This document shows, piece after piece, positions 4,006 to 10,112 of a stretch of 64,000 nt of DNA. Numbering within the stretch: position 1 is the stretch's first letter; every line of letters starts with the position of its first letter. The DNA comes from a virus. The notes below the pieces were generated by a model. It saw nothing but the letters and a program-made list of their open reading frames with translations. It searched no databases and had not been told where the DNA came from. The stretch spans positions 135,811 to 199,810 of IMG/VR virus record IMGVR_UViG_3300027709_000056, one strand, 5' to 3'. The position numbers were made by a program, and so were the translations under genes.

Positions 4006-4533
4006 TTACCTTCTATTATATAATTTATCATATTTTTTAAAGTACTTCTGTCGCTTCTTTTTAGCCATATTGAGCTTTAGCTTACTTACTCTATCTATAA
4101 AATTAATTCCGTATAAATGGTCGTATTCATGCCCAAATATTCTAGCATTCCAACCTTGTAACTCTATTGTACACTCTTTTTGCTTACTGTCAAGACAATC
4201 TATTATCAATCCAGCTGGACGTTTTACTTTAATATATAAAAAAGGAAAACTTAAACACCCTTCTTCACCTATAATTGTTTCTTCTGTTACGTGAGTTATT
4301 TTGGGATTAATTATAGCAAATGCTTTGTCATCTTCATAGCCTTTTAATTCTACAGGCTTCATAATAAAAATTTGTGCATCTAATTCTACTTGATTAGCCG
4401 CCAATCCGACACCGTGTTTCTCATCCATAATAGATATCATATCGCGTTCTATATCTAAAGCATTATGCTCAGTAAAATCAAACGGCTTTACTGTTTTTTC
4501 TAACCAACTATTTGGAGCTTCTATTAATTTCAT
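4006..4533 (-). CDS. def: peptide deformylase
   Basis: GVGLAANQV, EGCLS and HEYDHL motifs. Confidence 0.95.
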   Translation of the reverse strand: MKLIEAPNSWLEKTVKPFDFTEHNALDIERDMISIMDEKHGVGLAANQVELDAQIFIMKPVELKGYEDDKAFAIINPKITHVTEETIIGEEGCLSFPFLYIKVKRPAGLIIDCLDSKQKECTIELQGWNARIFGHEYDHLYGINFIDRVSKLKLNMAKKKRQKYFKKYDKLYNRR

Positions 4534-5378
4534 CGTAATAAGTTTTTTAATTTTTTTTGTGTTTGTTTGTCGTTAATATTAGGTGTAATGCCATTAATCT
4601 TAATAAACAATGACCCAGTTCTTCTAGTTCTATGATCTGGTAACCCTTGTTCGTGTACACTAAACGTTGTACCAGGGTTTGAACCAGCCGGGATTTGTAC
4701 ATTTAATTTCTTTCCATGGATTGTGTCAACGGCAATACTTGTGCCTTGGATAAGATCAATAACATCAACATTTTTATTTACATAAAGGTCTATACCATCT
4801 ACATCATATATGGGGTGTTTCTTTACACGTATTTTAACATGAAGATCCCCTGGTTGTCTACCTGGAAAGTACTCATTTCCACCCATACCTCTAAAATTTA
4901 TTGTATCTCCAGGGCGTACTCCTCTAGGTATATCAATATTAACTGTATGCTCTTGTCCATTCTGTTGCCTAAATGATGCAATAAAACTTTTACCTGTTAT
5001 AATATCTTCTAATTCAATATCTGCGGCTATTGTTACATTTTGATTTCGTCTTTGTTGAAAGCCACGTCCGAAAAATGGATTATCGCCTCCATTAAACATT
5101 TGGTCAAATATATCTCCTACGTTAATGTTATCACCATGAAAATGATATTGTTGTCCTTGAGGTCTATGTTGGTGTGGATCAGTAGTACCGAATTGATCGT
5201 ACATTGATTTTTTCTGTGGATCTTTTAAAGTATCGTATGCTTCGTTAATTCGTTTGAATTGTTCTTCGTTTCCACCTCGGTCAGGATGGTGCGTCATCGC
5301 TTTTTTCTTAAAAGCGTTTTTAATATCCGTTTCTGAAGCATTTCGAGGAATCTCTAGTATGTCATAGTAATTTGCCAT
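4530..5378 (-). CDS. dnaJ: DnaJ-family co-chaperone, class II/CbpA-like (no zinc finger)
   Basis: J-domain YYDILE...HHPDRGG and C-terminal GDLHVKI...GLP region; no CxxCxGxG repeats. Confidence 0.92.
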   Translation of the reverse strand: MANYYDILEIPRNASETDIKNAFKKKAMTHHPDRGGNEEQFKRINEAYDTLKDPQKKSMYDQFGTTDPHQHRPQGQQYHFHGDNINVGDIFDQMFNGGDNPFFGRGFQQRRNQNVTIAADIELEDIITGKSFIASFRQQNGQEHTVNIDIPRGVRPGDTINFRGMGGNEYFPGRQPGDLHVKIRVKKHPIYDVDGIDLYVNKNVDVIDLIQGTSIAVDTIHGKKLNVQIPAGSNPGTTFSVHEQGLPDHRTRRTGSLFIKINGITPNINDKQTQKKLKNLLR

Positions 5379-5421: not shown

Positions 5422-5739
5422 TTATTTGCGTTTGGGCATTGATGCACCAGGCTTACCAACATACAATCCAAAGAATGCCGCGCCAGCACCAACTATAGTT
5501 GAGATAAACATAGCTTGAGAATTAGTTGGATCTGGTAAAGCCATAAACCATGTAACTGATTGATAGAATGCCATGATGTAAGCTAACATAATTAGTCTAG
5601 GTATAACTCTAAACTTATCAAGAACGCCAGCTGTTTGATTATACCAAGTACCGTCTTCGTCACCAGATGCAGGAACTAAATCTGCTTTATCTAATTCATA
5701 TTCCCGACTAGTTTCTTTTACTTGAATTTTATCACTCAC
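5422..5739 (-). CDS. hypothetical two-TM membrane protein
   Basis: Two hydrophobic segments (RLIMLAYIMAFY..., AMFISTIVGAGAAFFGLYV). Confidence 0.75.
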   Translation of the reverse strand: MSDKIQVKETSREYELDKADLVPASGDEDGTWYNQTAGVLDKFRVIPRLIMLAYIMAFYQSVTWFMALPDPTNSQAMFISTIVGAGAAFFGLYVGKPGASMPKRK

Positions 5740-6143
5740 TTCTTGTCTCCATTTTTAATTTTTTTAATCTCTTCGCGATTATCATGAATCGCTGATCTAT
5801 TATTATGAGGAGTATGATCAAAAACAACTTTTTCTAATTTTAGAAATGGTATTCTATCATTGGGTACATAACGCCAAATATAGTCGCCATCCCATTCACC
5901 ACCTGTTTTAGTAATACCGAATACAGTTTCAGTCATTCCTATTTTAACAATTAAAGCTCTTTCGCCATCGAGTATAACTTTATCACCTTCTTTAAATTGT
6001 GGGTTTAATTTAAATGCTATACCTTTGGCAAGTTTAGTAGCCCAGTCTTTAAACCAAATAGCTATCATGATGGAGATTAGAATTCCTATCCACGGCATCA
6101 TTACATCTGTCAACTGTAAGGACAGGTCGTTTAATTCATTCAT
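5736..6143 (-). CDS. small MscS-like (MS_channel beta-domain) membrane protein
   Basis: One TM followed by FKEGDKVILDGERALIVKIGMTET, resembling MscS F.vGD.I.i.g..G.V..Ig...T. Confidence 0.6.
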   Translation of the reverse strand: MNELNDLSLQLTDVMMPWIGILISIMIAIWFKDWATKLAKGIAFKLNPQFKEGDKVILDGERALIVKIGMTETVFGITKTGGEWDGDYIWRYVPNDRIPFLKLEKVVFDHTPHNNRSAIHDNREEIKKIKNGDKK

Positions 6144-6388
6144 TATTTTTTCTCCAACTTGTTAATGCGTTTTTCCATAGCCTCTAGTTTTTCTTTAAGA
6201 ATAGGGAATTTTTTCATCTGCTTTTCTTCGTCTGTTATCAGTTTTATGTGGTAGCGTTTTGCCGCCCAAGTGTATAATTCATCTATTTTATTATAAAACC
6301 AGACACCTAGTTTTGTGCCGCGAAACCATTTTTCAGTTGCGCCGCCTAAAATACTTCCTGCAATAGCTTTTATAAGAAAAAACCACAT
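6143..6388 (-). CDS. hypothetical protein
   Basis: ORF with GGAG SD and TAAATA at 6414-6419. Confidence 0.75.
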   Translation of the reverse strand: MWFFLIKAIAGSILGGATEKWFRGTKLGVWFYNKIDELYTWAAKRYHIKLITDEEKQMKKFPILKEKLEAMEKRINKLEKK

Positions 6389-6431
6389 ATTTGCTCCTTT
6401 AATAATATACTATTATTTATCAGGATGTGGT

Positions 6432-7145
6432 TTATGGAATAACGTTGGTACTGCCACCTCGATCGGTAGGTAATTGCTGTTCTTGTGTGTTATTATTAGT
6501 ATCTGGGGTACCATCAGGGGATACTAAAGACTCTCCCCCGAGCCAACCGTCAGCTGTTGGTTCATTAAGAGGTACTGGTTCTGGTTCTTTATATGTTTTT
6601 TCAAGTTTAAAGTTTTCTGGTAGTATGTATGGAACAAATTTTTGACGTTCTTCGTTTGTACCTGTATGTGATTCGCCTTTGCCTTTTTTCTTACCAATTT
6701 TTACAGCTATTGTTCCGCCTTTACGTTGTTCGTCAAGACCCCTTAATTGCTTATGCATTTGTCTAGTATATGGTATAACCCAAGCTCGTGGTACAGTAGT
6801 ATTAACCACTAATCCTAACTTATCTATCCATTCCATTTTTTTATCTTCTTCTTTTTTAGGTATTAACCACAAAAAGATGTTACCCTTATTACCAGTTTTA
6901 GGGTTAGGTTCTACAATATAAGAGCCAACAAGGTAATAACTTTCGTTATTAGGGTGTGCATTATACGGAAAGCCATATATTGCTCTTAATCCTATCCAAG
7001 CACTTGATATAGATAATAATAGTGTTATAGTAACTATAGCTTTAACAAACCATCTAGATCTAGATGCAGTAATAAAGATCCATAAGGTTAATGCACCAAG
7101 TAATAATAGTACAAATACTAAAAAGATGTGTCCTTGTATAATCAT
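6432..7145 (-). CDS. membrane protein, third gene of MotA/MotB-like operon
   Basis: Two N-terminal TM helices; start abuts stop of the upstream gene. Confidence 0.75.
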   Translation of the reverse strand: MIIQGHIFLVFVLLLLGALTLWIFITASRSRWFVKAIVTITLLLSISSAWIGLRAIYGFPYNAHPNNESYYLVGSYIVEPNPKTGNKGNIFLWLIPKKEEDKKMEWIDKLGLVVNTTVPRAWVIPYTRQMHKQLRGLDEQRKGGTIAVKIGKKKGKGESHTGTNEERQKFVPYILPENFKLEKTYKEPEPVPLNEPTADGWLGGESLVSPDGTPDTNNNTQEQQLPTDRGGSTNVIP

Positions 7146-7810
7146 TAATTGTCTCCCTGGGAATCTAAGCCACCCATACCTTGAACTATTTGGTAAGGTA
7201 ATTCATTAATATCTGTAATTTTGCCATCTTCGTCTACAGTAAATCTAAGAACAGTTTTTTCTTCACCTTTTATAGTTAACATTACTTCTTTAATATAAAC
7301 GACACCATATGGGTTTAATTTTTCAACATTAACCCTTACAGGTATTATTTCAAAATAATCATTTTTTGCAACATCGTGTCTAGGAGTACGTCTATATAAA
7401 TGTACGTTTACAATATATTCTCCAGGAATGATGCCTCTAATTGTTACGTGTTCTATATTTTGACGGACATAAATTTTGTCGCCAGATGTAGTTGTAATAG
7501 TGTCATTAGATCTACCTAAGTCATCTCTATCTAGATTCATTAAGCCACGATCTTTTTGTTTAAAGCCAACTATATTGCCAGCCGGGTCTTTGACCCAAGT
7601 ATCAATATCGTCTGCACTATTATCAGGCCAGCTAGTTGTTATAATAAATTCTGCAATTACTTCTACATTAGATTTTTTAGCAACTGGATTTATTAAGATA
7701 AAAGCTAAAACAAAAAGGAAAACAAAACCCACTAAGGTATTAAATAGCAAATCAATAAATGCTATTTGGGAACCGTATGTTCTAATTCGATCAAGTCGAA
7801 GAAATCTCAT
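7145..7810 (-). CDS. MotB/ExbD-like single-TM protein with YfaP/DUF2135-like soluble domain
   Basis: TM with intramembrane Asp (AFIDLLFNTLVGFVFLFVL); WP...DIDTWVKDP...LDRDDLG...GEYIVNVHLY pattern. Confidence 0.65.
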   Translation of the reverse strand: MRFLRLDRIRTYGSQIAFIDLLFNTLVGFVFLFVLAFILINPVAKKSNVEVIAEFIITTSWPDNSADDIDTWVKDPAGNIVGFKQKDRGLMNLDRDDLGRSNDTITTTSGDKIYVRQNIEHVTIRGIIPGEYIVNVHLYRRTPRHDVAKNDYFEIIPVRVNVEKLNPYGVVYIKEVMLTIKGEEKTVLRFTVDEDGKITDINELPYQIVQGMGGLDSQGDN

Positions 7811-8321
7811 TCCTGTACCTTTCGAGGTCTTGTTGGAGCCTAAAGTACTGGAATTTTAATAGTGTGCTTGTTATTAAACCGGTAAGTGTAGTGTAAAGAG
7901 CAGTAGACATTCCTACTGCCATGTTTGCCAGTGCTTGTTGAACTGATGATACATCTGATATATTGATTCCATGAAATGCTCCTGCTAACATCAATATGAA
8001 ACCAGCAACAGTACCAATTAGCCCCATTGTTAATAAAACATCCGAAGCGAACCATCCTGTTTCGTGTCGAATGTCTACGTTTTTAATTTCGTCTAATTCT
8101 TTATTTGCTAGTTTACTTAACAACCAGGATTCATAACCGCAATGAACTGTCATACCATAGAAGATGGCCAAGATGAAAAACGATAGTTTCGTTTTATCTT
8201 GTATCCAAAGAGTAGTGTGTACGTCGAATAAAAATAGCCCTATAGTCGCAACTATTAATAAACTGAAGAACCACCACCACTTCAAGAAGATAGTGTGTTT
8301 CCTAATAGTCGATATGTCCAT
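7791..8321 (-). CDS. MotA/TolQ/ExbB proton-channel family protein
   Basis: MGLIGTVAGFILML and GMSTALYTTLTGL helices typical of the ExbB/MotA channel. Confidence 0.8.
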   Translation of the reverse strand: MDISTIRKHTIFLKWWWFFSLLIVATIGLFLFDVHTTLWIQDKTKLSFFILAIFYGMTVHCGYESWLLSKLANKELDEIKNVDIRHETGWFASDVLLTMGLIGTVAGFILMLAGAFHGINISDVSSVQQALANMAVGMSTALYTTLTGLITSTLLKFQYFRLQQDLERYRNEISST

Positions 8322-8365
8322 GACAATAGTATTTAGTTTTTTTTATTCCGGGTGGTCTTATTAAG

Positions 8366-8393
8366 AAAAAAATAGGCATAAGATATGCCTATT
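8366..8393 (-). terminator. rho-independent terminator after spanin genes
   Basis: Minus strand AATAGGCATA-TCT-TATGCCTATT followed by a T run. Confidence 0.8.
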
Positions 8394-8407
8394 AAGTATA
8401 TAGATAA

Positions 8408-8794
8408 TTATTTTTTATTTTTATCGTCTTCGGATTCGTAATATTCTTTGTACTGATTAATTATTTCTCTTTGTTTAATAATATATGCTCTTATTTGTGC
8501 AAAATTTATACTAAGAGTTTCATAACCTTCATCTGTGAGTCCGAACAGAACTGGATCGTGACCAGATTGTTTAACCTTTTCAAGAACTTCTGAAGCATTT
8601 TCTGAATTAATTATATACCACTTTAAATCCTCTACTTTAAGCGGATCAGGAAGTTCTAGGTTGAGCGGTTGACGTTCAACTTCTGTTTTAAAAATGTCCA
8701 GCTTTTTTACGGTACTACAACTAGTTGTAAGGAACGTAATTGGGATTAGCAATACTAGGACACTCAGGATTGATCTGAGACTTCTTCGTTGCAT
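8408..8794 (-). CDS. o-spanin-like lipoprotein
   Basis: Signal peptide ending FLTTSC (lipobox-like), Pro-rich segment; overlaps the 3' end of the i-spanin-like gene. Confidence 0.65.
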   Translation of the reverse strand: MQRRSLRSILSVLVLLIPITFLTTSCSTVKKLDIFKTEVERQPLNLELPDPLKVEDLKWYIINSENASEVLEKVKQSGHDPVLFGLTDEGYETLSINFAQIRAYIIKQREIINQYKEYYESEDDKNKK

Positions 8795-9215
8795 TTTTCT
8801 CTTTCTCCGTTAAAGGTGAACCTGTAGCGATTTCAAAACATCTATTCGCATTTGCGGTACCTTTGTTAATGACTTTTTCCATAATTTTTGCTTTTTTAAG
8901 AGCAAGGGCGCCTACATCACGCTTTTTGCCTGATGCATTTACTTTATTAAATTTTTCTTCTGTATCTGCTAGTTCTTTAGCAAGTGTTAAGTTTGTTTCT
9001 TGTAATTTTTTACTAATTTCTTGTTGTTTTTTAAAATCAGCTTGTACTTGTTCTATAACAGCTCTTTGATCAGAAATGCTTTGTTCTAATTTCATATTAT
9101 TAGCTTCACTAACAGCCAGGTCAGCTTTAAGTGTTTTTACATACACATAAGCACCACCAATACCGCTGAGTATTGCTAATATTATTAAAATTTTAACGGT
9201 ACTAAATATTCCCAT
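8721..9215 (-). CDS. i-spanin-like protein
   Basis: N-terminal TM, long coiled coil, two C-terminal Cys; TAATG-coupled to the ACP-like gene. Confidence 0.65.
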   Translation of the reverse strand: MGIFSTVKILIILAILSGIGGAYVYVKTLKADLAVSEANNMKLEQSISDQRAVIEQVQADFKKQQEISKKLQETNLTLAKELADTEEKFNKVNASGKKRDVGALALKKAKIMEKVINKGTANANRCFEIATGSPLTEKEKNATKKSQINPECPSIANPNYVPYN

Positions 9216-9436
9216 TAACAACTCTCCGCTAATTTAATTATATCATCTACAGTAACAAGATGTTCCATTTTATCTTCAGGCATAGTAATACCTGCTTTTT
9301 CTTCTATGGCACAACAGATCTCAATCATATCCATATCGTCGCCATCTAAGTCGTCGATTATACTATGTTTAGGTTCTATTACTACATCTTGTCCAAAATG
9401 TTCGTGTAATGCTTCCATTACTTTTTCTTTAATCAT
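9215..9436 (-). CDS. acyl carrier protein-like, phosphopantetheine Ser replaced by Asp
   Basis: SIIDDLDGDDMDMIEICCAIEEK aligns with ACP [27 protein letters not shown] SD before ATG 9436. Confidence 0.8.
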   Translation of the reverse strand: MIKEKVMEALHEHFGQDVVIEPKHSIIDDLDGDDMDMIEICCAIEEKAGITMPEDKMEHLVTVDDIIKLAESC

Positions 9437-9438
9437 TT

Positions 9439-9591
9439 TTACTCCATATCTACAGTAGCCTGGCCCCAGGCTGATTCTTCGTATCGGGCGTGGTAACAAA
9501 CTATAATTTCTATTGGTTTATTATCGCCATCTTTAAATTCTTCAACTAATCTACCTTCGTGTTCACGTCCACAGTTTTGACACGTTCTCAT
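9439..9591 (-). CDS. 50-aa CxxC/His putative metal-binding protein (not in ORF track)
   Basis: Manual: MRTCQNCGREHEG...VCYHARY...; ATGA overlap with endolysin stop. Confidence 0.65.
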   Translation of the reverse strand: MRTCQNCGREHEGRLVEEFKDGDNKPIEIIVCYHARYEESAWGQATVDME

Positions 9592-10112
9592 ATCATATTT
9601 AAGGCTATGTTCGATGTTTCGCTTACTCGTCTACTCCAGCCTCTTCCAAATGTTTCAAATGTGGATAAACTTTCGTAATATCCTTGCCTAGCATCTTGGT
9701 ACTCACGGATTGCTATTTCTACACCGTTTGCTTCAACAAATTCGTTTACTTTACTAATTGTATTTGGGCCTATAGCCCCATCTACTCCTGCTCCGACTAG
9801 CTCTTGTAGGTATCTAGCGGCTCGTCCTGTGCCAGCGTTTACGCCAAAGTCGAATACGCACAGATCTAGACCGGCGGGCAAATCGTTTGCATGAACTCTG
9901 CCCCAGTAGTTCTTTTCATAGATAGGAGCAACATCATCTTCAGTTAATGCTTTCATAGTGTCAGCATCAACTTCGTGTCCTACCCATTCTTCATAAGTCC
10001 GTTTAGTAACACCCATATTAGTGATACCACCCGGGTCTTTAGGATGATTAACGTAACCACCTTCATGGTCTAAGATTATCGAAAGTGCGTCTCTGTAATT
10101 CTCTCTCGCCAT
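9588..10112 (-). CDS. endolysin, glycoside hydrolase family 108 with PG-binding domain
   Basis: HEGGYVNHPKDPGGITNMGVT motif; C-terminal FGRGWSRRV. Confidence 0.92.
   Translation of the reverse strand: MARENYRDALSIILDHEGGYVNHPKDPGGITNMGVTKRTYEEWVGHEVDADTMKALTEDDVAPIYEKNYWGRVHANDLPAGLDLCVFDFGVNAGTGRAARYLQELVGAGVDGAIGPNTISKVNEFVEANGVEIAIREYQDARQGYYESLSTFETFGRGWSRRVSETSNIALNMI

What the first reader, a model, noticed from the sequence alone, without database searches (positions are those of the whole stretch)
6432..8335. Phage-encoded three-gene ion-motive-force stator-like system (MotA/ExbB + MotB-like + partner)
Seen: three overlapping or abutting genes with their own TAAATA motif (8330-8335), insulated upstream by a terminator. 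They encode (i) an ExbB/MotA channel protein, (ii) a single-TM protein with the intramembrane Asp of MotB/ExbD (AFIDLLFN) fused to a YfaP-like domain instead of an OmpA/peptidoglycan-binding domain, and (iii) a two-TM protein with a soluble domain. Known: MotAB, ExbBD, TolQR and Zorya ZorAB are 5:2 ion-driven motors. Inference: a complete phage-borne membrane motor with a dedicated third subunit in place of TonB/TolA. Candidate roles are superinfection exclusion, interference with Zorya/Tol/TonB, nutrient uptake, or depolarisation timing next to the lysis genes. This is the best candidate for an undescribed system in the window.
Basis: partly seen in the sequence, partly recalled or inferred. 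Interest (0 to 1): 0.85.

Follow-up and report, generated by a model that had tools for sequence, protein, structure and literature searches.

The report
Phage-borne minimal MotA/TolQ-type motor trio
A marine T4-like phage carries three tightly packed membrane-protein genes that look like a stripped-down proton-driven motor of the flagellar-stator/Tol/Ton kind with two undescribed partner parts; the same unstudied trio is common in phages and in bacterial chromosomes, and in some phages its third part is fused to a cell-wall-cutting enzyme.

Summary
Three co-directional, overlapping minus-strand genes lie behind a terminator-like hairpin and a TAAATA motif.

- **gA** (7791-8321) is a 176-aa MotA/TolQ/ExbB-family protein (Pfam PF01618). 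It keeps both channel threonines and has almost no cytoplasmic domain.
- **gB** (7145-7810) has one membrane helix whose Asp20 is kept in 145 of 146 diverse relatives. Its outer beta-sandwich has a TerD-like fold (Z 10.1). It matches no ExbD, OmpA-type, TerD, PPC or DUF2135 profile.
- **gC** (6432-7145) has a two-helix membrane hairpin, a small domain with no solved look-alike, a flexible linker and a conserved LPPxxLPxK-type end motif.

The A-B-C order is kept in 107 of 128 loci. It occurs in 240 viral contigs, in cultured Rhizobium phages and in bacterial chromosomes among housekeeping genes. The trio is therefore a cellular module that phages also carry, not a phage invention. RefSeq names gB and gC "hypothetical", and I found no paper on it.

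Its function is unproven. My best reading is an ion-driven 5:2-type motor with a periplasmic output. One phage clade fuses gC to an intact lysozyme, and here the trio sits inside the lysis cassette, so a link to the cell wall or lysis is my favoured but weakly supported role. This scan found the same trio before on other DNA.

The parts
8371..8393 (-). Terminator-like hairpin (10-bp stem, 3-nt loop, then TTTTTCTT) that closes the spanin genes upstream of the trio
8330..8335 (-). TAAATA motif 8 nt before the gA start codon. It is a candidate late-type promoter element of the class that sits very close to the ATG.
   Evidence: 8 of 77 genes carry TAAATA 7-15 nt upstream; my estimate of the chance expectation is about 0.4
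7791..8321 (-). gA: a 176-aa MotA/TolQ/ExbB-family channel subunit. It carries GLIGTV (T104) and ALYTT (T145). The loop where TolQ, ExbB and MotA carry their cytoplasmic domain is only about 25-60 aa long.
   Evidence: Pfam PF01618 E 1.9e-9; profile nearest TolQ E 3.8e-4, then MotA, PomA, ExbB, ZorA; invariant G100 G103 T104 T145 G148 in 45 homologues
7145..7810 (-). gB: a 221-aa protein with an Arg-rich N-terminus and one membrane helix (about 16-40) carrying Asp20. Its periplasmic beta-sandwich (about 52-210) has a TerD-like fold and an invariant acidic cluster (D68 D70 D96 D97 E120).
6432..7145 (-). gC: a 237-aa protein with a two-helix membrane hairpin (2-26, 32-56) and a small alpha/beta domain (about 60-150; conserved GWP, PRAY, LPY, H131). 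A disordered linker follows, then the conserved end motif (here YILPENFKLEK) and a lineage-specific 45-aa tail.

Best explanation
The three genes encode one self-contained inner-membrane machine of the MotAB/TolQR/ExbBD (5:2 ion-driven motor) kind.

**Proposed assembly.**
- gA would form the ring. It keeps the two channel threonines but has almost no cytoplasmic domain, so nothing can be driven on the cytoplasmic side.
- gB would be the central pair. Its invariant membrane Asp takes up and releases the ion. In place of a peptidoglycan-binding or ExbD-type head it carries a TerD-like beta-sandwich with a probable calcium-binding site.
- gC would be the dedicated output or adaptor, in the position of TonB or TolA. 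It is anchored by a helical hairpin, with a small periplasmic domain, a flexible linker and a short conserved docking motif at the end.

**Origin.** The module is a chromosomal operon of several bacterial lineages and has moved between cells and phages several times.

**Role in this phage.** It is probably made late and lies inside the lysis cassette. My favoured role is coupling the energised state of the membrane to events at the cell wall, such as controlling or positioning a murein hydrolase, or timing lysis.

**What is shown and what is inferred.** Shown: family membership of gA, conservation of the Asp and the threonines, the fold of gB, the synteny, the distribution and the lysozyme fusions. 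Inferred: the 5:2 assembly, ion drive, calcium binding, gC as output, and the lysis or cell-wall role. My sub-odds are about 0.8 for the motor-type core and about 0.35 for the cell-wall or lysis role.
For: **gA.**
- It is above Pfam's cut-off for MotA_ExbB.
- By profile it is closest to solved TolQ, then MotA and PomA. GLIGTV aligns on TolQ's GLFGTV and ALYTT on ALIAT.
- T104 and T145 are invariant in 45 homologues.

**gB.**
- Asp20 is present in 145 of 146 cluster representatives that are only 34-58% identical to the window protein.
- The N-terminus is Arg-rich, so the C-terminal domain should face the periplasm.
- The fold of residues 52-210 matches TerD: Z 10.1, rmsd 3.6 over 130 residues (2qz7_B), and Z 8.6 (2kxt). 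The next best match is 6.2. Foldseek also ranks TerD-family entries first.
- D68, D70, D96, D97 and E120 are kept in 145-151 of 151 sequences.

**Co-inheritance.**
- The A-B-C order is strict in 107 of 128 loci, and most exceptions are start-codon or small-insertion effects.
- The trio is found in 240 IMG/VR contigs and in three types of cultured Rhizobium phage.
- It is found in 45 species-level bacterial genomes. In 83 flanking proteins sampled from 21 of these loci it lies beside housekeeping genes such as GatB, SufB, FtsH, NadA, MiaA and OtsAB.

**Link to the cell wall.**
- In one phage clade (L099, L103, L105, L112, L113, L115, L123, L127, L129) a complete gC, end motif included, is fused to a T4-type lysozyme. 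Pfam confirmed PF00959 (E 1e-45 to 6e-50) in six of the nine (L099, L103, L112, L115, L123, L127). For L105, L113 and L129 the fusion is inferred from ORF length (295-305 aa) and tree position only. The Glu-Asp-Thr spacing is intact in all five printed sequences.
- The fusion also fixes the C-terminus of gC in the periplasm.
- In the window's own clade the trio lies between the spanins with the GH108 endolysin and three small membrane proteins.
Against: - No complex was modelled or measured, so stoichiometry and ion drive are inferred from family membership only.
- gB matches no ExbD, TerD, PPC or DUF2135 profile even at E <= 10. The TM-Asp likeness to ExbD, TolR and MotB is a motif-level resemblance.
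- gC has no recognisable relative or fold.
- The lysis link is thin. Sequence-detectable adjacency to lysis genes is limited to five near-identical contigs, which amounts to one evolutionary event.
- The nearest sister clades instead have Hsp70, ClpP or Hsp20 upstream and ClpS or SbmA downstream.
- Bacterial copies have no cell-wall enzyme beside them.
- The module also occurs in CPR bacteria. From general knowledge these lack an outer membrane, so a Tol/Ton-like outer-membrane role cannot be general.
- The promoter motif leaves no room for a ribosome-binding site.
Confidence: 0.5

Rival explanations
1. The same motor core, but the job is general envelope upkeep or energising transport, in the manner of Tol or Ton. 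On this reading it is a host-like auxiliary gene set that keeps the infected cell's envelope or uptake working, with no link to lysis.
For: gA is closest to TolQ by profile. The module is chromosomal among housekeeping genes in bacteria. In many marine phages it lies among host-like auxiliary genes: ClpS in 9, GDP-mannose dehydratase in 7, SbmA/BacA in 5 and FTR1 in 2 of 67 downstream proteins; ClpP in 7, Hsp20 in 6 and Hsp70 in 3 of 74 upstream proteins.
Against: No TonB, TolA, Pal or TonB-dependent receptor gene travels with it. The operon is self-contained in every lineage surveyed. It occurs in CPR bacteria, which from general knowledge have no outer membrane. This reading does not explain the repeated lysozyme fusion.
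Confidence: 0.22
2. A defence or superinfection-exclusion device. On this reading it is a Zorya-like sensor of envelope perturbation that blocks incoming phages or colicins, carried by phages to exclude competitors.
For: gA gives weak hits to several ZorA models in PADLOC (best E 1.2e-5) and NCBIfam, confined to the shared channel helices. The module is mobile between cells and phages: at least 5 switches are forced by well-supported branches. A temperate phage (16-3) carries it.
Against: gA has no long cytoplasmic tail, and gB has no peptidoglycan-binding domain. There is no ZorC/ZorD-like or other effector gene nearby. Bacterial copies lie among housekeeping genes rather than in defence islands. 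All ZorA scores are far below the family cut-offs (20 bits against 500).
Confidence: 0.12
3. Not a motor. On this reading it is a regulated ion leak, holin-like or antiholin-like, that depolarises the membrane at a set time, with gB's outer domain as the plug.
For: The trio lies between the spanins with the endolysin and three small membrane proteins in this phage. No holin has been identified in the cassette. From general knowledge, unplugged MotAB and PomAB complexes leak ions.
Against: The same operon is kept in free-living bacteria and in minimal CPR genomes among housekeeping genes, where a lethal leak would not be maintained. The conserved gC with its docking motif has no role in a simple leak. 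Lysis adjacency is not conserved.
Confidence: 0.08

Closest known systems
TolQ-TolR-TolA and ExbB-ExbD-TonB (Tol and Ton inner-membrane energisers; solved as 5:2 complexes, e.g. PDB 8odt, 5sv0)
   Same: It has a three-gene logic: a channel-ring subunit of Pfam PF01618, a single-helix partner with an Asp near the cytoplasmic end of the helix, and a third membrane-anchored protein with a long flexible periplasmic part. gA is closest to TolQ by profile and keeps both channel threonines. The genes are translationally coupled.
   Different: - gA lacks nearly all of the cytoplasmic domain and probably has an extra N-terminal helix.
- gB's periplasmic part is a TerD-like beta-sandwich, not the ExbD/TolR alpha/beta domain (no PF02472 match at E <= 10).
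- gC has a two-helix hairpin instead of one helix, no TonB or TolA C-terminal domain, and ends in a short LPPxxLPxK-type motif.
- No outer-membrane partner genes travel with it, and it is present in bacteria without an outer membrane.
MotAB / PomAB flagellar stator units (PDB 8gqy, 6ykm, 8brd)
   Same: It shares the channel family. The probable four-helix topology of gA resembles MotA. The partner has an essential-type Asp near the N-terminus of its single helix.
   Different: There is no torque-generating cytoplasmic domain. gB has no OmpA-like peptidoglycan-binding domain and no recognisable plug helix. No flagellar genes are present. A third subunit is obligatory.
ZorA-ZorB of Zorya anti-phage systems (PDB 8qyh, 8vvn)
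   Same: There is distant similarity in the two channel helices. Both are non-flagellar, non-Ton uses of the same motor family linked to phage biology.
   Different: There is no ZorA tail, no ZorB peptidoglycan-binding domain and no ZorC/D effectors. All scores are far below the family thresholds.
TerD-family calcium-binding beta-sandwich proteins (PDB 2qz7, 2kxt)
   Same: It is the best structural match to gB residues 52-210 (Z 10.1 and 8.6). Both have clusters of conserved Asp residues.
   Different: There is no sequence-profile match. From general knowledge TerD proteins are soluble and cytoplasmic, whereas this domain is membrane-tethered and should face the periplasm. A weak sequence echo (DLDLY..DP.GN) points equally to the calcium-binding beta-jelly-roll of Tk-SP subtilisin (E 0.2).
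SAR (signal-anchor-release) endolysins
   Same: In one phage clade a T4-type lysozyme is tethered to the membrane through gC, so its activity could depend on the state of the membrane.
   Different: The anchor is a full gC protein that belongs to a three-gene motor-like module, not a weakly hydrophobic N-terminal helix. Release has not been shown. The window's own gC carries no lysozyme.

Membership tests
MotA/TolQ/ExbB proton-channel family (Pfam PF01618) | Profile match above the curated cut-off | tested here: met
   gA E 1.9e-9, 37.8 bits against a cut-off of 22.9; the same holds in six-frame search of the whole record.
MotA/TolQ/ExbB proton-channel family (Pfam PF01618) | Conserved polar residues lining the ion path in the last two helices (Thr of GxxGT and Thr of the last helix, as in TolQ and ExbB) | tested here: met
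   T104 and T145 are invariant in 45 homologues. They align with the GLFGTV and ALIAT segments of solved TolQ.
MotA/TolQ/ExbB proton-channel family (Pfam PF01618) | Pentameric ring around a dimer of the partner (5:2) | not testable with these tools
   Seven chains exceed the six-chain limit of complex prediction. No experiment was possible.
ExbD/TolR family (Pfam PF02472) | Profile match to the ExbD/TolR periplasmic domain | tested here: not met
   No match to gB at E <= 0.1 or at E <= 10 in the whole record. The fold of the outer domain is a beta-sandwich.
ExbD/TolR/MotB-type partner (functional class) | A single N-terminal membrane helix with a conserved Asp near its cytoplasmic end, encoded directly after the channel gene | tested here: met
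   Asp20 is present in 145 of 146 representatives. The helix spans 12-40 in the model. gB overlaps gA by 20 nt. gB follows gA in 117 of the 122 loci with room to judge it.
MotB / ZorB (OmpA-like peptidoglycan anchor) | C-terminal OmpA-like peptidoglycan-binding domain | tested here: not met
   No Pfam domain in gB. The structure search of the C-terminal domain returns TerD-like and other beta-sandwiches, not OmpA-like folds.
TerD family (Pfam PF02342) | Profile match | tested here: not met
   No match at E <= 10. The resemblance is by fold only (Z 10.1).
YfaP / DUF2135 (Pfam PF09906) | Profile match | tested here: not met
   No match in the window protein at E <= 10. One bacterial homologue scores E 0.0097, 16.4 bits against a cut-off of 22. 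The Atlas feature score of 0.82 is a lead only.
Zorya (ZorAB plus effectors) | ZorA with a long cytoplasmic tail, ZorB with a peptidoglycan-binding domain, and ZorC/D or other effector genes in the operon | tested here: not met
   ZorA model scores are 20 bits or less against cut-offs of 190-500. gA ends about 18 residues after its last helix. No further conserved gene lies in the neighbourhood.
TonB / TolA (third subunit) | A single N-terminal anchor helix, a Pro-rich or helical spacer, and a C-terminal TonB_C/TolA domain | tested here: inconclusive
   gC has no Pfam match in any of 52 homologues and no structural match. It has two helices rather than one. It shares only the general plan of anchor, flexible linker and terminal binding element. 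The TonB_C profile was not run separately.

The most novel reading that the evidence does not exclude
The trio would be a fourth functional class of 5:2 ion motors: a minimal, headless ring whose calcium-binding beta-sandwich axle and tethered third subunit turn membrane energisation into control of murein hydrolysis. Phages would have captured it from bacteria to gate or power lysis. This would be a lysis-control principle different from holin/antiholin and SAR release. In bacteria it would be an unrecognised PMF-dependent cell-wall remodelling device.
Probability: 0.25. Interest if true: 0.85.

Novelty: new variant of a known kind. Interest (0 to 1): 0.65.

Why it matters
Every known member of the MotAB/ExbBD/TolQR/ZorAB family powers a large, well-known machine: flagella, outer-membrane uptake, cell division or phage defence. 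This module is much smaller and self-contained, and it has two parts with no described relatives.

It is also widespread. The gB profile finds 2141 clusters (at 50% identity) at E <= 0.001. The module is in hundreds of phage contigs, in cultured Rhizobium phages, in Alphaproteobacteria, in Desulfobacterales and in CPR bacteria.

A stator-type motor with no cytoplasmic domain would be a simple system for studying how ion flow is turned into work. A phage-borne copy inside a lysis cassette, and lysozyme-fused versions in other phages, give a concrete, testable idea of what that work might be.

Cultivable carriers exist, namely Rhizobium phages 16-3, P10VF and RL38J1, and the bacterium Plasticicumulans acidivorans DSM 23606. 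The question is therefore open to ordinary genetics.

Tried and rejected
- **Complex prediction.** A job with gA, gB and gC as single full-length chains, each with an alignment, returned 'no answer' (score 0.00). This is no evidence either way. A 5:2 model could not be requested because of the chain limit.
- **DNA and gA/gC searches in cultured phages.** A DNA search of 6000-9000 against cultured phages found nothing. tblastn of gA and gC against the same collection also found nothing. Only gB's outer domain reaches the Rhizobium phages by BLAST. Their gA and gC counterparts were recognised afterwards by Pfam, alignment and HMM.
- **PHROGs.** There is no family for any of the three proteins.
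- **gC structure search.** The wide search was dominated by the helical hairpin (Z about 8, common for helices), and Foldseek gave nothing below E 0.15.
- **Profile of gB against solved structures.** This gave only E 0.2 echoes of a subtilisin beta-jelly-roll.
- **Literature.** Four full-text searches and two targeted reads, a 2025 survey of MotAB relatives and a 2022 review of 5:2 motors, gave no description of this operon.
- **Metatranscriptomes.** Contigs from RNA libraries cover parts of gA (one run) and gC (one run) in related strains. They are contigs, DNA carry-over cannot be excluded, and the uncovered parts mean nothing. I do not count this as proof of expression.
- **Search for a conserved fourth gene.** Clustering of flanking ORFs found only lineage-specific neighbours. 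An overlapping fourth ORF follows gC in Plasticicumulans, but it is not general.
- **Proteostasis neighbours.** ClpP, ClpS, Hsp20, Hsp70 and, in this window, DnaJ and peptide deformylase recur next to the trio. They do so in clades related to each other, so I read this as inherited gene order rather than a functional tie.
Full report
**What is there**

The window is part of a 199.8-kb IMG/VR virus record that CheckV estimates to be 56% complete. It is a marine T4-like phage. A baseplate-wedge homologue matches cyanomyophages. Its GH108 endolysin is 61-63% identical to those of Pelagibacter phages HTVC008M and Mosig and of Methylophilales phage Melnitz.

On the minus strand three ORFs are packed head to tail:
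- gA, 7791-8321, 176 aa.
- gB, 7145-7810, 221 aa, overlapping gA by 20 nt.
- gC, 6432-7145, 237 aa, overlapping gB by 1 nt.

Upstream lie a GH108 endolysin (9588-10112), an ACP-like gene, and an i-spanin and o-spanin pair with PHROG Rz-like hits. A terminator-like hairpin follows at 8393-8371.

TAAATA lies at 8335-8330, 8 nt before the gA ATG. This motif is not random in the window. Eight of 77 genes carry it 7-15 nt before the start codon, against about 0.4 expected by my own estimate. A second class, GATAAATA, sits 24-32 nt upstream and is followed by AGGAG.

**The three proteins**

*gA.* It matches Pfam MotA_ExbB above the cut-off (E 1.9e-9). A profile of 45 homologues finds solved TolQ first (E 3.8e-4), then MotA, PomA, ExbB and ZorA. 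GLIGTV aligns on TolQ GLFGTV and ALYTT on ALIAT. G100, G103, T104, T145 and G148 are invariant. The stretch that corresponds to the roughly 100-residue cytoplasmic domain of TolQ, ExbB and MotA is only about 25-60 residues long. The protein ends about 18 residues after its last helix. Whether it has three or four membrane helices was not settled.

*gB.* It begins with an Arg-rich stretch, followed by one long helix (12-40 in the model) carrying Asp20 in AFIDLLFN.
- Among 151 sequences (150 representatives of 50%-identity clusters plus the window protein; the representatives are 34-58% identical to the window) the Asp is present in 145 of the 146 that cover the position.
- Residues 52-210 fold as a beta-sandwich whose best matches are TerD proteins: 2qz7_B at Z 10.1, rmsd 3.6 over 130 residues, and 2kxt at Z 8.6. 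The next match is 6.2. Foldseek agrees.
- W61, D68, D70, D96, D97, G99 and E120 are essentially invariant. From general knowledge, an acidic cluster of this kind binds calcium in TerD and related beta-sandwiches.
- No Pfam profile for ExbD, TerD, PPC or DUF2135 matches, even at E <= 10.

*gC.* It has a two-helix hairpin (2-26 and 32-56), a small alpha/beta domain (about 60-150) and a disordered remainder.
- Conserved positions are G58-W59-P60, W93, P119-R120, Y126, H131 and G143.
- It has no Pfam family in any of 52 homologues and no convincing structural match.
- After a variable Gly/Lys/Glu-rich linker, nearly all homologues end in a short motif of the type hydrophobic-hydrophobic-x-[D/E]-L-P-P-x-x-L-P-x-K. 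In the window it reads YILPENFKLEK and is followed by a lineage-specific 45-residue tail.

**Co-inheritance and distribution**

HMMs for the three proteins were run on 128 loci other than the window's own. The strict order A-B-C is kept in 107. Most of the remainder are truncated contigs, start-codon artefacts or small insertions.

The module occurs in:
- 240 IMG/VR contigs, some 200-527 kb long.
- Cultured Rhizobium and Sinorhizobium phages of three genome types, including temperate phage 16-3.
- 45 species-level bacterial genomes found by a pattern-limited scan.

In a Desulfobacterales chromosome and in Plasticicumulans acidivorans DSM 23606 it lies between ordinary metabolic genes. Across 83 flanking proteins from 21 bacterial loci the neighbours are housekeeping genes, with no phage genes and no recurrent partner. 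RefSeq names the three proteins 'MotA/TolQ/ExbB proton channel family protein', 'hypothetical protein' and 'hypothetical protein'. The gB profile finds 2141 clusters at E <= 0.001.

In a gB tree, viral and cellular sequences interleave. At least five switches of label are forced by well-supported branches. The window falls in an all-viral group. The module is therefore cellular as well as viral and has been exchanged repeatedly.

**Clues to function**

Adjacency to the endolysin and spanins is shared only by five near-identical contigs. The nearest sister clades have Hsp70, ClpP or Hsp20 upstream and ClpS, then SbmA/BacA, downstream. I read this as inherited gene order among host-like auxiliary genes.

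The strongest clue came from a lead in earlier notes of this scan, which I tested myself. In one phage clade (L099, L103, L105, L112, L113, L115, L123, L127, L129) a complete gC, including its end motif, continues into a T4-type lysozyme.
- Pfam confirmed PF00959 (E 1e-45 to 6e-50) in the six members scanned. The other three are inferred from ORF length (295-305 aa) and tree position.
- The Glu-x8-Asp-x5-Thr spacing is intact in the five printed sequences.
- The fusion places gC's C-terminus in the periplasm and ties the module to murein cleavage at least once.
- Single loci elsewhere have a phage lysozyme, an M15 peptidase or an SLT transglycosylase within two genes.

By my count about 9 of 48 dereplicated viral loci have such a link. 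This is suggestive but not decisive.

**How it most likely works**

From established knowledge of MotAB, ExbBD and TolQR, a PF01618 ring plus a single-helix partner with a buried Asp forms a 5:2 complex, and ion passage drives relative rotation. The conserved Thr-Thr-Asp triad here fits that pattern.

Because gA has next to no cytoplasmic part, any work must be delivered in the membrane or the periplasm. It would be delivered through gB's beta-sandwich and through gC, which has the layout of a TonB/TolA-type adaptor: anchor, linker and terminal docking element.

For the phage I favour coupling of membrane energisation to cell-wall hydrolysis or lysis timing (about 0.35). Next come Tol-like envelope upkeep (about 0.22), exclusion or defence (about 0.12) and a regulated leak (about 0.08). 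All of these are inferences.

**Comparison and novelty**

The trio is a member of the MotA/TolQ/ExbB family through gA only. It is not an ExbD/TolR, MotB/ZorB, TerD, DUF2135 or TonB family member by any profile tested. It works most like Tol and Ton but differs in all three subunits and has no outer-membrane partners.

I found no publication on it. A 2025 survey of MotAB relatives mentions unstudied 'generic ion transporters' with appendages of unknown function, but it does not mention this operon.

I class it as a new variant of a known kind. The same trio has been reported by this scan several times on other DNA, with the same general conclusion.

Noticed in passing
window, whole; examples 1056, 6388, 18836, 20201, 23736, 26411, 32014, 41459, 53343 (gene starts, minus strand): There are two classes of TAAATA-type upstream motif. 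GATAAATA lies 24-32 nt before the start and is followed by AGGAG. TAAATA lies only 7-15 nt before the ATG with no Shine-Dalgarno, in 8 genes including gA. The second class suggests leaderless or near-leaderless late messages.
   Followed up: partly
window 5422-6388 (minus strand): Three small membrane proteins (81, 135 and 105 aa) follow the trio behind their own GATAAATA motif. The 105-aa protein has two C-terminal hydrophobic helices and matches phrog_10198 (unknown function). They are candidates for the holin or antiholin that the cassette otherwise lacks.
   Followed up: no
L099:2768-3661, L103:2454-3356, L112:735-1622, L115:2645-3553, L123:6526-7443, L127:1604-2509: In one clade of marine phage contigs the third gene of the trio is fused in frame to an intact T4-type lysozyme domain, giving a membrane-tethered muralytic enzyme.
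   Followed up: yes
L055:7619-8614, L056:4721-5692, L057:7553-8518, L063:7441-8406, L065:7481-8449: Sister phages encode a full-length SbmA/BacA-type inner-membrane peptide transporter (Pfam E about 1e-135). It lies two genes downstream of the trio, after a ClpS gene. This is an unusual phage cargo.
   Followed up: no
window 9436-9479: RNA-library contigs from three runs replace 42 nt with an 11-nt segment (CATATTCCTCA) at the junction of the 50-aa ORF and the ACP-like gene. This is probably a strain variant of the phage.
   Followed up: no
L037 (MAG labelled Chloroflexota) and L123 (IMG/VR contig); L040 (MAG labelled Nanoarchaeia): The gB of L037 is identical to that of viral contig L123, so that short MAG contig is probably a misbinned phage fragment. 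The 3.2-kb 'Nanoarchaeia' contig may be one too. Host-range statements from short MAG contigs need care.
   Followed up: partly
window 4006-5378 (minus strand): DnaJ (282 aa) and peptide deformylase (175 aa) genes lie just beyond the small membrane proteins. In related phages the trio is flanked by Hsp70, ClpP, Hsp20 and ClpS, so it sits in a recurring proteostasis gene island.
   Followed up: partly
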